A DNA stretch of 63,130 nucleotides, taken from positions 1 to 63,130 of the forward strand of contig JASJDT010000021.1 in NCBI GenBank assembly GCA_030065655.1. The letters are read 5' to 3'. This stretch comes from Desulfocapsaceae bacterium. GTDB taxonomy: Bacteria; Desulfobacterota; Desulfobulbia; Desulfobulbales; Desulfocapsaceae. Positions 57,070 through 63,129 of the stretch are shown here, in pieces (position 1 is the first letter of the stretch; the number at the start of each line of letters is the position of its first letter). A program made the position numbers and the translations under genes. The notes below the pieces were generated by a model. The model worked only from the letters and a program-made list of their open reading frames with translations, was not told where the DNA came from and did not search any database.

Positions 57070-57378
57070 ATGAGCGATACCGGCAGGAAAGGGTCAGTTT
57101 CAACCCAGGAGAAAATTGAAACCAGGGAACCGCCTCTTTACAAAGTGCTTCTTCATAACGATGATTACACAACCATGGAATTTGTTGTGGCAGTATTGGA
57201 GAATGTATTTAAAAAAACGAACGCCGAGGCAACAAGAATAATGCTCAGCGTTCATCATGAGGGAGTTGGGGTTGCTGGAGTCTATACCAAGGAAATCAGT
57301 GAAACCAAAGTATCAATCGTTCATGAGCTGGCAAAACAGAATAATTTTCCGCTACGATGCTCCATGGAGAGTGTCTGA
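57070..57378 (+). CDS. clpS: Clp protease adaptor ClpS
   Basis: YKVLLHNDDYTTMEFV, ML.VH.EG, FPL.C.ME. Confidence 0.97.
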   Translation: MSDTGRKGSVSTQEKIETREPPLYKVLLHNDDYTTMEFVVAVLENVFKKTNAEATRIMLSVHHEGVGVAGVYTKEISETKVSIVHELAKQNNFPLRCSMESV

Positions 57379-57406
57379 GCTAAAATCTAGAGAAAGACAA
57401 TAGACA

Positions 57407-59674
57407 ATGCTGAGTAAAACATTGGAAATGGCCCTTATTCGGGCGATACGAGAAGCGAAAAGTCATAACCATGAGTATGTGACGGTTGAACACATGCTCT
57501 ATGGTTTGCTGCATGACGACTTGACCAACTATATCATCTCTGAATGTGGCGGCTCCATTGATAACCTCAAACAAAAGCTGGAAGAATTCTTCGATGCAGG
57601 AATCCCCCAGCTCTCGCCGAAAGCGGAGAGCGAGCCCGCTCAGACGCTGGCCTTCAACCGGGTGCTGCAACGAGCTGTGGCTCATGTGCAAAGTTGCGGC
57701 AAGATGGAGGTTGACAGTGGCGACGTTCTTGTTTCCATCTTTTCCGAATCGGAATCTCATGCCGTTCATTTCCTCGGTACGGAAGGTATTGGACGTATGG
57801 CTGTAGTCAATTTTGTCTCCCATGAGCTTCCGGAAAACCTGCAGAAGGAACCTTTTCCCAAGCCTCAGGAGAGCAGTCCAAAGAAAAAGGAATCCAGCAC
57901 CGAAGATAAAGCACTTGAAGAATTCACCGTCAATCTTACGGCTCAGGCCGCTGAAGCGAAGCTTGACCCGCTCATCGGCAGAGAGATGGAGATCGACAGG
58001 ATCATGCAAGTGCTCTGCCGCCGCAAAAAAAATAATCCTTTGCTGGTAGGCGAACCAGGCGTTGGCAAAACTGCTATGGCTGAAGGGCTGGCCCTGTCAA
58101 TTCATGCCGATGCCCTAGCCCGACTTAATGATGAGCAAACAAATGTTCCGGATCTGCTCCGCGATGTGGAAATCTATCTACTCGACATGGGCGCACTCGT
58201 TGCCGGTACCAAATATCGAGGCGACTTTGAAAAACGGCTAAAAGGTGTTATTGGGGCAATTGAGAAAAAGGACAATGCTATACTCTTCATCGATGAGATT
58301 CACACCGTCGTTGGTGCTGGAGCGACAAGCGGTGGCTCGATGGATGCTTCAAACCTGCTCAAACCAGCTCTGCAGGCAGGAGTACTCCGCTGCATTGGTT
58401 CAACCACTTATGAGGAATACAAGAATCAGATAGAAAAAGATCGAGCTCTTTCCCGCAGGTTTCAGAAAATCGATATCGAGGAGCCCAGCGTTAAAGACAC
58501 TCAAGCCATCCTGCATGGCTTAAAAGGTCGTTACGAGGAACATCATAAAGTTAGGTATTCCAGAAACTCAATTGATTCCATTGCCGAGCTTTCGGACCGT
58601 TATATCAATGAACGCTTCCTTCCCGACAAAGCAATCGATGTCATGGATGAAGTCGGCTCATTGTTCAGAATGAAAGGCAAACTTAACAAGACCGTTAAGA
58701 TTACCGATGTGGAAACCGTTGTTTCCCGCATGGCGCGTGTTCCTGCAAAACATAGTACCCGCAGTGAAAACCAATCCCTGCAGCAACTAGGTGAACGACT
58801 GAGAAGCGTCATTTTTGGTCAGGACGCAGCTATCGACGCGGTTGTACAGGCGGTGAAGCGATCACGAGCGGGTCTGGGCAATCCCGATTCGCCCACCGGC
58901 AGTTTTCTCTTCGCCGGTCCAACCGGAGTAGGTAAAACAGAAGTGGCCAGGCAGCTCGCCGATAAGCTGGGAGTGCACTTCGAGCGGTTTGACATGAGTG
59001 AATACATGGAGAAACATGCTGTCGCCAGGCTCATTGGTGCTCCCCCAGGTTATGTCGGATTTGATCAGGGTGGACTGCTGACTGAAGCGATCAGGAAACA
59101 TCCATATTCGGTTCTGCTTCTCGACGAAATAGAGAAAGCCCACGGCGATATCTACTCTATTTTGCTTCAGGTGATGGATCACTCAACCCTGACGGACAAT
59201 ACCGGAAGAAAAGCCGATTTTAGAAATGTCATCATAATCATGACCACCAATGCTGGGGCACGAGAGATGAGCAGCGCTTCTATCGGTTTTGTCACCTCCG
59301 GCAACACGGGTAAGGACAAAACCGCGGTGAATAAGATTTTCTCACCGGAATTCAGAAATCGCCTGGATGGTATCATTTCCTTCGCCTCTCTCGAAACCAA
59401 CACTATGGAGAAGGTGGTTGATAAACTCATAGGTGAACTCAGAAATCAACTCGCCGACAAAAGAGTGAGTATCGTCTTGAGCGACAATGCCAGAAACTGG
59501 TTAGCTCGGAAAGGGTATGATCCCGCCTACGGCGCTCGTCCTCTAAGAAGATTGATTATGAAGGAAATAGGCGACGTACTAACAGAAGAAATACTTTTCG
59601 GCGAACTTACCCAGGGCGGACAGGCATCCGTTGATGTCAGTGACGACAAACTTTCCTTTGCCTACGAGAAATAG
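57407..59674 (+). CDS. clpA: ATP-dependent Clp protease ATP-binding subunit ClpA
   Basis: Two AAA modules ([16 protein letters not shown]), no ClpB middle domain, IGF loop and position after clpS. Confidence 0.96.
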
Positions 59675-60030: not shown

Positions 60031-61617
60031 ATGCCAGCAAACGAAGAACGACTCATAGAAGACCACCAGAAGGTCATTCAAACCATAAGAAAATATACCA
60101 ATATTTTCCTTGTCAACACCTCGGGTGATCCCCCCGACGAATATGACATTGAATACAAGGTACGGGGTTATGCTTTAACCACGGATGGTAAGGTCGTCAC
60201 CAGAAAGCATCATCGGATTAAAATAAAAATACCCTTCGGTTACCCTCATTTTCCTCCGACAATCAAACCGCTCAGCCCTATATTTCACCCAGAGGTAGAT
60301 GATTATGTAATGCCCATTGCCAACTATTGGGAGGAAAATAAATCACTGCCTGACCTGATCATCCATATCGGCAATATGCTCTGCGGAGCGGTTTACAAAA
60401 CCGACTCGGCATTCAATGAGAAAGCTGCGGAATATTATCAGAAGCATCGTAAAGAGCTGCCGCTCGATTCTCTCCAGCTCGTCAAAAAGAGTAAACGACG
60501 TGCCGGTCGTTCCATCTCTTTTGGTTTTCTCATCCCGGTTTTCAAGTCCCTGTTCTTCCTATTATTCCTCGCCATCATTGGTGTTGGCGGTTTGTTCTTC
60601 TACGAAAAATTGAAGATCCAGCAGGCTGGTGCGGTATTGACTAAGGCGGAAATCTATGAAGTTGACAAGGATTTCGAAAAAGCTCAGCAAACCGCCCAGA
60701 AAGCCTTGAAGAGTCTGGACAATTTTTACCTATTGGAGCACTCGCAAACGGCCATGCAGAAAGAGATAGAGGATTTTCTCCAATCGGAATCACTCCTCCA
60801 GGGTTTGCAAGGCAATATTCGCTACGGTAATAAATATGTCAGCATCACGGATGTTCAGAAAATCAATTTCTTTAAAGATCTGGTAGCTGATGCTGAGATC
60901 TCCATGAACAAAGATGCACATGCGCAGGCCATCCAAACTTTTGAGAAAGCGCTTGATTATGCCACATCAAACAGTCTTGATGTGGATACAGGTGAAATAA
61001 GAAATACTTTAGTACATTTAAAATTCCAGGTTTTGCAAAAAGAAGCTGAAGAGGCACATGAGAATAAGAACTGGGAGGAAGCAGTTAGCAGACACCAGCA
61101 GATTCTTGAGTTTATTGAAAATAACAGAGAAAACCTGAAAGACACCAAGAAACAGGAAGACTCCTTCAAACATATGTTGCTCGTAGCTCAGATAGCCCAT
61201 CACTCGCAGGAAGCCGTCAACTCAGAAAAGGCTGGTGAATTCGCCCTTGCCCTCCAGCATCATCAGACTCTGGTCGATCTCATCGGCAATTCCGAGTCCG
61301 GTGACAGTGCCACCATGAAGAACACCTTGGCCGATTCAGTCCAGCAAGTGGCTACCCTTCAGGAGAAGTTACGCCTGCAGAAACAGCGCCTCTGGCTGCT
61401 TAAAAACTACAAAGAAATCTTTAAGATACACTATCCAACCGTACTTTCTTCCAGTCTCCAGAATCCCCAGGCGCTCTTCCTCAAATACGATGGCATCAAC
61501 AGTGTCTTTGACCTGAGCTGCCTAGAAAAGGGAGCGGGTACCGTCGTCAGGCTGCGGGTCTATTATCAATTTAATCCCGAAACCGGCGAGTGGTCAATTT
61601 ACGACGAAAAGGCTTGA
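60031..61617 (+). CDS. Membrane-anchored protein: N-terminal E2/UBC-like (UEV-type) domain, one TM helix, C-terminal TPR-like helical region
   Basis: I.IPFGYPHFPP.I..LSPIFHPEV...W....SL.DLI..I..ML...AFNEKAA.YY matches the UBC pattern. A basic stretch precedes a hydrophobic helix (aa ~161-191), followed by helical repeats. Confidence 0.75.
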   Translation: MPANEERLIEDHQKVIQTIRKYTNIFLVNTSGDPPDEYDIEYKVRGYALTTDGKVVTRKHHRIKIKIPFGYPHFPPTIKPLSPIFHPEVDDYVMPIANYWEENKSLPDLIIHIGNMLCGAVYKTDSAFNEKAAEYYQKHRKELPLDSLQLVKKSKRRAGRSISFGFLIPVFKSLFFLLFLAIIGVGGLFFYEKLKIQQAGAVLTKAEIYEVDKDFEKAQQTAQKALKSLDNFYLLEHSQTAMQKEIEDFLQSESLLQGLQGNIRYGNKYVSITDVQKINFFKDLVADAEISMNKDAHAQAIQTFEKALDYATSNSLDVDTGEIRNTLVHLKFQVLQKEAEEAHENKNWEEAVSRHQQILEFIENNRENLKDTKKQEDSFKHMLLVAQIAHHSQEAVNSEKAGEFALALQHHQTLVDLIGNSESGDSATMKNTLADSVQQVATLQEKLRLQKQRLWLLKNYKEIFKIHYPTVLSSSLQNPQALFLKYDGINSVFDLSCLEKGAGTVVRLRVYYQFNPETGEWSIYDEKA

Positions 61618-61899: not shown

Positions 61900-62565
61900 C
61901 TAGGACACAATCTCACCATTGGCCATTTCCAAGATCCGTTCAGCCCGCTTGGCATACAGCGGCTCATGGGTAACCATCACCACGGTCAGACCATCTTTAT
62001 GTAATTCTTCCAGCAGGTGGATGATCTCTTCACCGGTCTTCTGATCAAGGCTGCCAGTTGGCTCGTCAGCAAAGAGAACCCTGGCCGACTTCACCATCGC
62101 CCTGGCAATGGCAACACGCTGTTGTTCGCCACCGGAGAGTTTACCGGGTAGCCTGTCTTTCTTATCAGCCAGTCCGATGCGATCCAGACAATGTTCAGCC
62201 CGGGCGACAATATCCCTCGGTACCGGAGCAAAGGAACTCATAAAGGGCAGCAGGGTATTTTGCATCACTGTGAGATAGGGCAGTAAGTGATGAAACTGGA
62301 AAATGATCGCAAAATCTTTTTGGCGAAGCGTGTTAAGATGCTCAGCCGATGCCGAAGCTAGATCGTTCTTGTGGTAATAGAGTTTTCCTTCATCGGGGTG
62401 GACCAATGTGGAGAGAACATTGAGCAAAGTGGTCTTGCCGGATCCGGACCTGCCCACGATCGACAGAAATTCTCCCTCCTCTATTTCGAGACTGACATTC
62501 CGCAGTACCTGTATTTTCTCGCCGCCATTGTTAAAGAATTTATTTAAATTCTGAGCGTACAACAT
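61900..62565 (-). CDS. ABC transporter ATP-binding protein (LolD/MacB family)
   Basis: [34 protein letters not shown]. Confidence 0.93.
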
Positions 62566-62574
62566 GCTGATCTC

Positions 62575-63129
62575 CTAAAATGATACCAATGCCTGAGATG
62601 GTTCGGTAACTGCACCTTTCCAGGCTGGATATAAAGCGGCAAGCAAGGCCACAAAAGCAAAGAGCAGCGCGCTGCCCATCAGTTGACCACCACTGAATAC
62701 TGGTTGAAAACTGTCCGAAAGCTGAAGAATATCAAGCGCTTTGAAACTTGCGCCATACCCCGCCAGATATCCGCAGATACCAGCCGCCATACCGATAAGT
62801 GCGGCTTCGGCACAGAATATGGTAAATACCTGGGATTTTGCATAGCCAAGTGATCGGAGAATACCGATATCCTTCTTCCTCTCGTTTACCGCCGAAAGCA
62901 TGGACAGACCAATCATTGCCGCAGCCGTCACCAGGATAACGATACTGATGGAAAACGCCAGCTGCTGAACAAAGGTGATTGATTCCATGCGTTGATTGAC
63001 GATATTTTGCAGCGCTTTGATATCGGCGCCCGGCAGGTTGGTCCGTATCTGTGCGACAATATCATCAATCGGACATCCTGAACAAAGGGCGGCAACCTCG
63101 ATAAAGCTGACCCCATCTGGTTTATCGAG
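62575..63129 (-). CDS. ABC transporter permease (FtsX/MacB family), 5'-partial
   Basis: The frame is open to the window edge. ERKKDIGILRSLG and YPAW.......P.QAL motifs. Confidence 0.88.
   Translation of the reverse strand, partial: LDKPDGVSFIEVAALCSGCPIDDIVAQIRTNLPGADIKALQNIVNQRMESITFVQQLAFSISIVILVTAAAMIGLSMLSAVNERKKDIGILRSLGYAKSQVFTIFCAEAALIGMAAGICGYLAGYGASFKALDILQLSDSFQPVFSGGQLMGSALLFAFVALLAALYPAWKGAVTEPSQALVSF

What the first reader, a model, noticed from the sequence alone, without database searches (positions are those of the whole stretch)
60031..61617. Membrane-anchored ubiquitin-conjugating-enzyme (E2)-like protein without the catalytic cysteine, next to clpS-clpA
Seen: aa ~35-140 follow the UBC pattern (IKIPFGYPHFPPTIKPLSPIFHPEVDDYVMPIANYW...LIIHIGNML...AFNEKAAEYY). 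The HPN motif is HPE and the expected active-site Cys about 6-8 residues later is absent; the only nearby Cys (ML-C-G) is at a non-catalytic position. A basic patch (KKSKRRAGRS) precedes one TM helix, predicting a cytoplasmic E2 domain and a ~335-aa periplasmic TPR-like part. Known: bacterial E2s usually sit with E1, Ubl and JAB genes (for example in defence systems), none of which are in this window, and Cys-less E2 folds (UEV/RWD) act as binding modules in eukaryotes. Inference: this may be an undescribed trans-envelope adaptor or signalling protein that couples a periplasmic cue to a cytoplasmic partner, possibly the neighbouring ClpS/ClpA N-degron machinery. The 356-nt gap after clpA means co-transcription is not shown.
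Basis: partly seen in the sequence, partly recalled or inferred. Interest (0 to 1): 0.82.

Follow-up and report, generated by a model that had tools for sequence, protein, structure and literature searches.

The report
Membrane-anchored retired ubiquitin-conjugating enzyme
This sulfate-reducing bacterium carries a predicted membrane-spanning protein whose head has the fold of a ubiquitin-conjugating enzyme but lacks the catalytic cysteine and any partner enzymes we could find, so it likely works as a docking arm across the cell envelope, and its place beside the ClpS-ClpA protease genes is likely incidental.

Summary
It is the second, short copy of a gene nearly universal in three Desulfobulbales families. 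The genome's long copy keeps the Cys, but the short form groups with the Arg-type forms of another family (AU p=0.0002): a transferred or ancient copy, not a recent duplicate. The closest outside relatives are Cys-bearing E2s, two seen in E1-Ubl operons; no such E1 or Ubl was found here. The head is the best-conserved part, so it is most likely a non-catalytic docking module. The Clp link is not supported: the sister short clade sits after recD2, 138 long loci lack clpSA, and a conserved hairpin follows clpA with or without this gene. The family's lasting neighbour is a Cys4-DUF4388/PATAN gene (68 of 90 genomes). I found no paper on the family; this scan has already reported it in at least eight other windows.

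The parts
60031..61617 (+). Gene for the 528-aa single-TM pseudo-E2 protein (short subfamily)
   Evidence: 36 full-length homologues at 44-87% identity
60031..60465 (+). E2/UBC-fold head (aa 1-145), predicted cytoplasmic
   Evidence: Pfam UQ_con over cut-off; PDB phmmer; VIA Z 12.9
60232..60258 (+). Loop P68-F69-G70-Y71-P72-H73-F74-P75-P76; F69/H73/F74 near-invariant in the family but not in the operon-type relatives; candidate docking patch (maps to the E3-binding loop of canonical E2s, recalled)
60286..60294 (+). HPE, replacing the HPN motif
60313..60315 (+). Pro95 at the catalytic-cysteine position
   Evidence: aligns with the Cys of the long paralogue and of operon-type E2s
60484..60513 (+). 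Basic patch (aa 152-161) before the TM helix, in a low-confidence linker
60529..60600 (+). Single predicted transmembrane helix (aa ~167-190)
   Evidence: hydropathy; exactly one segment in 36 of 36 short proteins
60601..61365 (+). Helical-repeat (TPR-like) arm with one beta-hairpin, predicted periplasmic (aa 191-445)
   Evidence: AF2 secondary structure; Pfam TPR below cut-off
61366..61605 (+). C-terminal helix plus four-stranded sheet, NTF2/cystatin-like, with conserved Cys497 (aa 446-525)
   Evidence: model pLDDT 93.7; VIA Z 6.0-6.5 to TcpC/VirB8-like/cystatin chains; Atlas TM 0.68-0.75 on homologue P0021
59681..59703 (+). GC-rich 9-bp hairpin just after the clpA stop, U-tract ~15 nt later; likely ends the clpSA transcript
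   Evidence: z -3.4, 0 of 200 shuffles; in 10 of 11 other loci; not listed by the strict terminator scan
57070..59674 (+). clpS-clpA, upstream neighbours; likely not functionally coupled

Best explanation
The protein is a pseudo-E2 fused to one predicted membrane helix and a long arm, and it likely works as a non-catalytic adaptor that spans the inner membrane, independent of ClpS/ClpA. Shown: E2 fold, loss of Cys and HPN, one hydrophobic segment, conserved head, second copy of a near-universal gene. Inferred: the family descends from membrane-anchored Cys E2s of bacterial E1-Ubl-E2-JAB systems and lost E1 and Ubl. The active-site position then changed lineage by lineage (Cys, Arg, Lys, Pro, Ser, Tyr), while a family-specific patch (F69/H73/F74) was fixed as a docking site. 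The periplasmic helical arm and NTF2-like tip would bind an envelope protein and position the head, which would recruit a cytoplasmic regulator. The best candidate partner for the family is the Cys4-(cNMP)-DUF4388/PATAN protein encoded head-to-head with the long copy (about 0.25; no binding data). The short copy, without the ~200-aa acidic/TPR cytoplasmic spacer, would be a second arm with different reach, inserted after clpA in one clade and after recD2 in its sister.
For: Fold and lost Cys. Site 95 over 454 distinct domains: C 211, R 176, P 32, K 10, other 25; 18 of 18 operon-type relatives have HPN+Cys (redundant sample, and about 4 operon-type rows slipped into the 454). Cys absent in 23 of 23 f17 genomes sampled and 10 of 17 f5, yet the gene is in 33/34 f1, 33/35 f17, 21/35 f5 genomes. 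Head 65.8% mean pairwise identity against 41.0% for the arm and 60.0% for the tip. No full-length conjugation-type E1 in 41 genomes: all matches lie within query aa 11-227 of 424; one-contig G040 has the E2 gene and no match. Own genome: three ThiF-family genes over cut-off, read as thi-operon ThiF, MoeB-like and TcdA-like from their context; ThiS/MoaD only; JAB hit reads as RadC; no YukD, no Prok-RING_1 over cut-off. Topology: more Lys/Arg on the N-side in 101 of 115 long forms, and a C-x15-C pair right after the TM in 114 of 115, consistent with a periplasmic disulfide. DUF4388 neighbour head-to-head in 68 of 90 E2 genomes; all 70 genomes with the strong orthologue have the E2 gene. Origin.
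Against: No experimental data and no partner shown. 20 of 90 E2 genomes lack the strong DUF4388 orthologue, and kin share synteny without function. The short gene has no DUF4388 neighbour, and a second close DUF4388 copy occurs in only 2 of 10 genus genomes. Head-less homologues exist (f16 6/6 and f4 2/2 hit the C-terminal profile, 0/11 and 0/2 hit the E2 profile, in different samples), so the arm can work without the head. 38 of 42 f1 long forms keep the Cys, which a purely inert head does not explain. The positive-inside bias is weak in short forms (22 of 36 for, 10 against). The genome is 84.5% complete.
Confidence: 0.55

Rival explanations
1. Membrane adaptor for ClpS/ClpA: the head tethers or feeds the N-degron machinery.
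For: clpS-clpA lies directly upstream in 6 of 8 same-genus loci, the other 2 lacking upstream DNA, and in 12 of 22 short-form loci. The clpA-linked clade has a long stem, so it may have changed function.
Against: Sister short clade (6 loci, including Desulfopila aestuarii and Desulfosediminicola flagellatus) follows recD2. 0 of 138 long loci near clpSA. 0 of 8 further clpA loci are followed by the gene, including same-genus G004. clpS is in 41 of 41 genomes, so no shared profile. Gaps of 148-822 nt and a conserved hairpin after clpA.
Confidence: 0.08
2. UEV-like partner of the Cys-bearing long paralogue (as Mms2 is for Ubc13, recalled), or a receptor for a ThiS/MoaD-type protein, with residual thiol chemistry in the long copy.
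For: All 14 genomes with a short form that I could check also have a long form, mostly with Cys. Cys95 occurs only with Cys78 (211 of 211). ThiS/MoaD and ThiF/MoeB-type genes exist in the genome. Bub E2s were first called inactive and proved active (bioRxiv 10.1101/2024.11.21.623953, passages).
Against: No conjugation-type E1 or Ubl found. f17 genomes have one copy and no Cys. No Ser at the site in the short form. The D. aestuarii long copy has Ser, not Cys. Cys78 is ancestral (18 of 18) and its loss maps mostly to one clade, so the pairing is not independent evidence.
Confidence: 0.12
3. The function lies in the periplasmic arm (an envelope scaffold); the head is a passenger or a folding/localisation tag.
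For: Head-less homologues in f14, f16 and f4 and a head-less tandem copy in G662. The tip resembles NTF2-like domains of conjugation-scaffold proteins.
Against: The head is the most conserved part, and its family-specific invariant residues hold in both Cys and non-Cys members.
Confidence: 0.15
4. One-component trans-envelope receptor: a periplasmic cue triggers cleavage or release of the head, as with transmembrane anti-sigma factors (analogy recalled).
For: Small head, one TM and a large periplasmic repeat arm; a cNMP-binding regulator gene sits beside the long copy.
Against: No sigma factor or protease gene was recognised among conserved neighbours; no signal-binding site identified.
Confidence: 0.1

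Closest known systems
Canonical UBC/E2 enzymes (Pfam UQ_con PF00179; UBE2C, UBE2S, Rad6)
   Same: Fold over aa 1-145 (Z 12.9, rmsd 2.6 A), P-x-x-Y-P-x-x-P-P loop, His-Pro, Trp100
   Different: HPE for HPN, Pro for Cys, N-terminal head of a membrane protein with a large predicted periplasmic arm, no E1/Ubl found
Bacterial HPN+Cys E2s fused to Zn fingers, FHA, TPR or TM (Sumerlaeota P0285, Spartobacteria P0302), and E2s of E1-Ubl-E2(-JAB) operons (G390 locus L083; Crinalium plasmid NC_019754)
   Same: Closest sequence relatives outside the family (E ~1e-36 to 1e-43); shared Cys78; some have E2-TPR-TM layout. Two more distant relatives sit in operons
   Different: They keep HPN and Cys (18 of 18); the family here is orphan, vertically kept, and has fixed F69/H73/F74. 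I could not fetch the gene context of the closest fused forms. Operons of this type were described by Burroughs, Iyer and Aravind 2011 (recalled; paper not held)
Eukaryotic UEV/RWD pseudo-E2 modules (Mms2, Tsg101, FTS/AKTIP)
   Same: E2 fold without catalytic Cys; FTS complex 8qat is among the top structural matches
   Different: Bacterial origin from a different E2 branch; membrane-spanning; no ubiquitin-like ligand known
Bub, Bil and CBASS Cap2 E2s
   Same: Bacterial E2 fold; Bub E2 also lacks Cys (bioRxiv 10.1101/2024.11.21.623953, passages)
   Different: Those act in operons with E1, Ubl and a peptidase; Bub has an invariant Ser at the site. Here Pro/Arg, no operon, no PADLOC match
Single-pass envelope proteins with NTF2-like tips (TcaA, TcpC, VirB8-like OrfG/TraM)
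   Same: Similar C-terminal fold at middling scores
   Different: No sequence match; different cytoplasmic head; no conjugation genes recognised nearby

Membership tests
Catalytic UBC/E2 enzyme | UBC fold | tested here: met
Catalytic UBC/E2 enzyme | Catalytic Cys after the HPN motif | tested here: not met
   Pro95; 0 of 37 short homologues have Cys
Catalytic UBC/E2 enzyme | HPN motif | tested here: not met
   HPE here; Asp in most of the family
Bacterial E1-Ubl-E2-JAB conjugation systems (operon type, Bil, Cap2) | E1, Ubl and JAB genes linked to the E2 | tested here: not met
   none on the contig; none recognised in the neighbourhoods read
Bacterial E1-Ubl-E2-JAB conjugation systems (operon type, Bil, Cap2) | A conjugation-type E1 and Ubl somewhere in the genome | tested here: inconclusive
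   not found with the queries used in own genome (84.5% complete) or, for E1, in 41 genomes; a divergent E1 could be missed
Bub oxyester E2 | Invariant Ser at the catalytic position | tested here: not met
   Ser in 6 of 454 domains, none in the 37 short homologues
UEV/RWD pseudo-E2 | E2 fold lacking the catalytic Cys | tested here: met
UEV/RWD pseudo-E2 | Descent from the eukaryotic UEV/RWD families (profile match) | tested here: inconclusive
   Pfam lists UQ_con, not UEV or RWD, at E<=1; closest relatives are bacterial Cys E2s; no tree with UEV/RWD sequences was built
UEV/RWD pseudo-E2 | Non-covalent binding of a Ubl, peptide or partner E2 | not testable with these tools
   needs binding assays
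ClpAS adaptor | Conserved linkage to clpS/clpA across the family | tested here: not met
   12 of 22 short loci, 0 of 138 long loci; sister clade at recD2
ClpAS adaptor | Co-transcription with clpSA | tested here: inconclusive
   conserved hairpin and long gap argue against; strict scan did not call it a terminator
ClpAS adaptor | Physical binding to ClpS or the ClpA N-domain | not testable with these tools
   needs pull-down or two-hybrid
NTF2-like domain (C-terminal aa 446-525) | Helix plus curved antiparallel sheet matching NTF2/cystatin folds | tested here: inconclusive
   VIA Z 6.5, rmsd 3.1 A, 82 residues to 3ub1; Foldseek no hit at E<=0.001; Atlas TM 0.68-0.75

The most novel reading that the evidence does not exclude
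Desulfobulbales, cable bacteria included, domesticated an E2 from a ubiquitin-like conflict system into a core trans-envelope signalling module, a bacterial counterpart of eukaryotic UEV adaptors that arose independently. Its head recruits a Cys4-cNMP-PATAN regulator to an envelope machine such as the type IV pilus motor, and Desulfopila-related lineages run two versions, a Cys-bearing long arm and an imported Pro/Arg short arm, possibly as a heterodimer.
Probability: 0.2. Interest if true: 0.8.

Novelty: new variant of a known kind. Interest (0 to 1): 0.5.

Why it matters
The bacterial E2s in the papers I read act inside ubiquitin-like operons. Here an E2 fold is kept in nearly every genome of two families and most of a third, with no E1 or Ubl found and with the catalytic residue replaced in several lineages. 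That captures an enzyme turning into a binding module, in parallel with eukaryotic UEV/RWD domains, and gives a natural Cys/Arg/Lys/Pro series for testing it. Cultured species carry these genes (Desulfopila inferna by homologue name, D. aestuarii, Desulfobulbus and Desulfogranum species), so the partner can be found by pull-down. The more exciting idea, an E2 fold wired to the ClpS N-degron pathway, is not supported.

Tried and rejected
Complex prediction of the E2 head with ClpS plus the ClpA N-domain: no answer, score 0.00 against a mark of 0.32; no evidence either way. RNA runs: none was listed, so transcript ends were not examined. Viral contigs: no relative. NCBIfam: nothing near cut-off for the protein; PADLOC: no match. 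C-terminal domain: no meaningful PDB sequence match, no Foldseek hit at E<=0.001, no Atlas hit by features. Recent duplication of the genome's own long copy: rejected (AU p=0.0014; short plus all f1 long forms, p=0.00016; quick trees on 34 and 24 selected rows; unrooted, so transfer and ancient paralogy are not separated). C118 as substitute nucleophile: invariant in 37 close homologues but Arg or Ser in more distant short forms and at a non-catalytic position. C497 as catalytic residue: replaced in several long forms. Cys78-Cys95 disulfide: not testable, no model coordinates available. Co-transfer of a second DUF4388 gene with the short form: only 2 of 10 genus genomes. Type IV pilus profile: PilM in 191 of 201 genomes, uninformative. 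GC content shows no recent-transfer signal (gene 45.1%, genome 46.6%). The careful tree on 96 E2 domains did not finish; the quick tree was used. Literature searches (listings only) showed no paper on this family. Burroughs 2011 and 2012 are not held; their supplements list bacterial E2 architectures and may include it.

Full report
Observation. The ORF at 60031-61617 encodes 528 aa. Its N-terminus matches Pfam UQ_con above the curated cut-off (30.9 against 27 bits) and human UBE2C by phmmer (E 1.1e-5). An AlphaFold2 model on 35 sequences (pLDDT 87.8) returns mainly E2 structures by Foldseek and aligns to UBE2S at Z 12.9, rmsd 2.6 A, 128 residues. HPN reads HPE. The catalytic position is Pro95 by alignment to Cys-bearing relatives. 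C118 lies at the end of helix 2. One hydrophobic segment (aa 167-185) follows a basic patch. The rest is a helical arm (aa 191-445; Pfam TPR only below cut-off) and a separate helix-plus-sheet domain (aa 446-525; model pLDDT 93.7). That domain resembles NTF2/cystatin-like domains at middling scores (VIA Z 6.0-6.5; Atlas TM 0.68-0.75 on homologue P0021).

A family with two forms. Sources name close homologues as Desulfopila proteins. Full-length orthologues occur in 8 of 9 other genomes of the genus. The genome also has a long paralogue on contig C23 (14529-17015, 828 aa): E2, acidic spacer, TPR, TM, arm, same tip. It keeps Cys at the catalytic site. The head-to-TM spacer has a median of 24 aa in 36 short forms and 206 aa in 115 long forms. 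An E2-head profile finds the family in 33/34 genomes of f1, 33/35 of f17, 21/35 of f5, 1/13 of f8, 1/3 of f11 and none of 80 others in the order, and in 9 of 401 genomes across the phylum. I read f1 as Desulfocapsaceae and f17 as Desulfobulbaceae, with cable bacteria among the Arg-type forms, from the titles of records with the same sequence types; this is an inference. All 14 short-form genomes checked also carry a long form.

The catalytic site. Among genome-derived heads: Pro in 9 of 9 short forms; Cys in 38 of 42 f1 long forms; no Cys in 23 f17 (20 Arg); f5 has Lys 9, Cys 7, Arg 1. Over 454 distinct domains: Cys 211, Arg 176, Pro 32, Lys 10, other 25 (redundant, with about four operon-type rows included by mistake). 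Even so, the head is the best-conserved part of the short form: 65.8% mean pairwise identity against 41.0% for the arm and 60.0% for the tip. P68, F69, H73, F74, P80, G119 and F128 are at least 85% conserved in both Cys and non-Cys members but differ in the 18 operon-type relatives. By recalled UbcH5 numbering, F69/H73/F74 lie on the loop that binds RING E3s. I infer a new docking patch there.

Origin. The profile search of 1.84 billion representatives shows that the next relatives are HPN+Cys E2s fused to Zn-finger arrays, FHA, TPR or TM segments, two named from Sumerlaeota and Spartobacteria. More distant relatives sit in operons: E1-Ubl-E2 in G390 and ThiF, two small proteins, E2 and JAB on a Crinalium plasmid. 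Within the family, trees of the head, the periplasmic part and both place the short form with f17, not with the long copy in the same genome. AU tests reject a duplication inside f1 (p=0.0014; p=0.00016). These are quick, unrooted trees on selected rows, so early transfer and ancient paralogy with loss remain open. GC content is not anomalous.

No conjugation machinery found. The genome (84.5% complete) has three ThiF-family genes over cut-off and three ThiS/MoaD matches, which read as thiamine, molybdopterin/AOR-linked and TcdA-like genes from sequence and context. Its only JAB-like match reads as RadC (labels from my knowledge of these families). YukD was not found, Prok-RING_1 gave no match over cut-off, and operon Ubl and JAB queries gave no match. 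The 424-aa operon E1 matched only adenylation-domain stretches in 39 of 41 genomes and nothing in one-contig G040, which has the E2 gene. Bub E2s were once called inactive and use a serine (bioRxiv 10.1101/2024.11.21.623953, passages; Iyer 2006 PMC1779556, passages). That caution applies, but the short form has Pro or Arg at the site and no E1 partner. BilABCD is a complete operon (bioRxiv 10.1101/2023.09.26.559546, abstract). Kaur 2020 (PMC7159879, passages) added nothing specific.

The Clp link. holA-clpS-clpA precedes the gene in 6 of 8 same-genus loci; the other two lack upstream DNA. Of 22 short-form loci from two collections (with some duplicates), 12 follow clpA, 6 follow a RecD2 helicase gene and 4 lack upstream DNA. 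The recD2 group, which includes D. aestuarii and Desulfosediminicola flagellatus and has Arg at the site, is the sister clade (support 99). None of 138 long-form loci has clpS or clpA within the DNA fetched. None of 8 further clpA loci is followed by the gene, including same-genus G004, and clpS is in 41 of 41 genomes. A GC-rich hairpin directly follows the clpA stop here (z -3.4), in 10 of 11 other loci (one is near-identical to the window) and in G004. The strict terminator scan did not list it. The simplest reading is an insertion behind the clpSA transcript end in one clade.

A better partner candidate. The long gene lies in secDF-ykgJ-HAD-[Cys4-(cNMP)-DUF4388]-E2, convergent with kdsD. 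The DUF4388 gene is head-to-head with it, 146-787 nt apart, in 68 of 90 E2 genomes. All 70 genomes with the strong orthologue (at least 90 bits) have the E2 gene; 20 E2 genomes lack it. I had noted this neighbour; an earlier scan note calling it a PATAN partner prompted the count. DUF4388 is the PATAN domain, which in Synechocystis binds PilB1 and PilC and reaches the membrane through unknown partners (bioRxiv 10.1101/2021.06.11.447907, passages). This is suggestive only: kin share synteny, PilM is near-universal, and the short gene has no such neighbour.

Mechanism. Most likely (0.55) a non-catalytic, single-pass inner-membrane adaptor: the periplasmic arm and tip engage an envelope partner, and the pseudo-E2 head recruits a cytoplasmic protein through F69/H73/F74. 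Fold, lost Cys, distribution and phylogeny are shown. Topology is predicted: Lys/Arg bias in 101 of 115 long forms but only 22 of 36 short forms, and a C-x15-C pair after the TM in 114 of 115 long forms. Partners and pathway are inferred. Against it: head-less homologues exist and most f1 long forms keep the Cys. Rivals: arm-only scaffold 0.15, UEV-like partner of the long copy 0.12, cleavable receptor 0.10, Clp adaptor 0.08.

Novelty. Seven literature searches (listings only) showed no description of this family. Burroughs 2011 and 2012 were not available and may list the architecture. The scan's notes report membrane-anchored orphan E2s in at least eight other windows. What this window adds is the short subfamily, its separate origin, the Cys-to-Pro state, the NTF2-like tip and evidence against the Clp link. 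Verdict: new variant of a known kind; interest 0.5.

Noticed in passing
G000:C23:14529-17015 (L031): Long paralogue (828 aa) with Cys kept at the catalytic site, HPD motif, acidic spacer and a C-x15-C pair after the TM.
   Followed up: yes
G000:C23:13142-14179 (L031) and G000:C266:605-1687 (L378): Cys4-cNMP-DUF4388 proteins; the N-terminal four-cysteine domain has no Pfam match. A second close copy occurs in 2 of 10 genus genomes.
   Followed up: partly
L083:8409-10777 (G390): E1 (424 aa), YukD-like Ubl ending in an extension after the last Gly, and a Cys E2 in one operon near a contig end; no JAB seen in the stretch read.
   Followed up: partly
L326:4239-9457 (Crinalium plasmid NC_019754): ThiF E1, two similar small proteins (one ending GGY), E2, JAB and a type IV coupling protein in a row on a mobilizable plasmid.
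   Followed up: no
L081:6254-9418 and L082:1951-5130 (G064, G101): A 1054-1059 aa Cys-less E2-TPR-TM-TPR protein ending in a long predicted coiled coil instead of the NTF2-like tip, in another family of the phylum.
   Followed up: partly
L064:328-2424, L065:8177-10327: Homologues with TPR-TM-arm-tip but no E2 head, in families f14 and f16.
   Followed up: partly
L367:4521-8705 (G662); L054:6806-9276 (G020): G662 has a head-less tandem copy beside the full gene; in G020 the gene is in two ORFs (316 and 508 aa).
   Followed up: no
P0276, P0273, P0291-P0295: Cys E2s fused to long arrays of short cysteine repeats, some ending in a TM helix.
   Followed up: no
G000:C16:13164-15002: 612-aa protein with an N-terminal zinc ribbon, a very acidic middle, a second Cys cluster and a C-terminal membrane domain.
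   Followed up: no
window 61900-63129 (-): ABC transporter ATPase and FtsX-like permease convergent with the gene; kept nearby in 5 of 22 short-form loci.
   Followed up: partly
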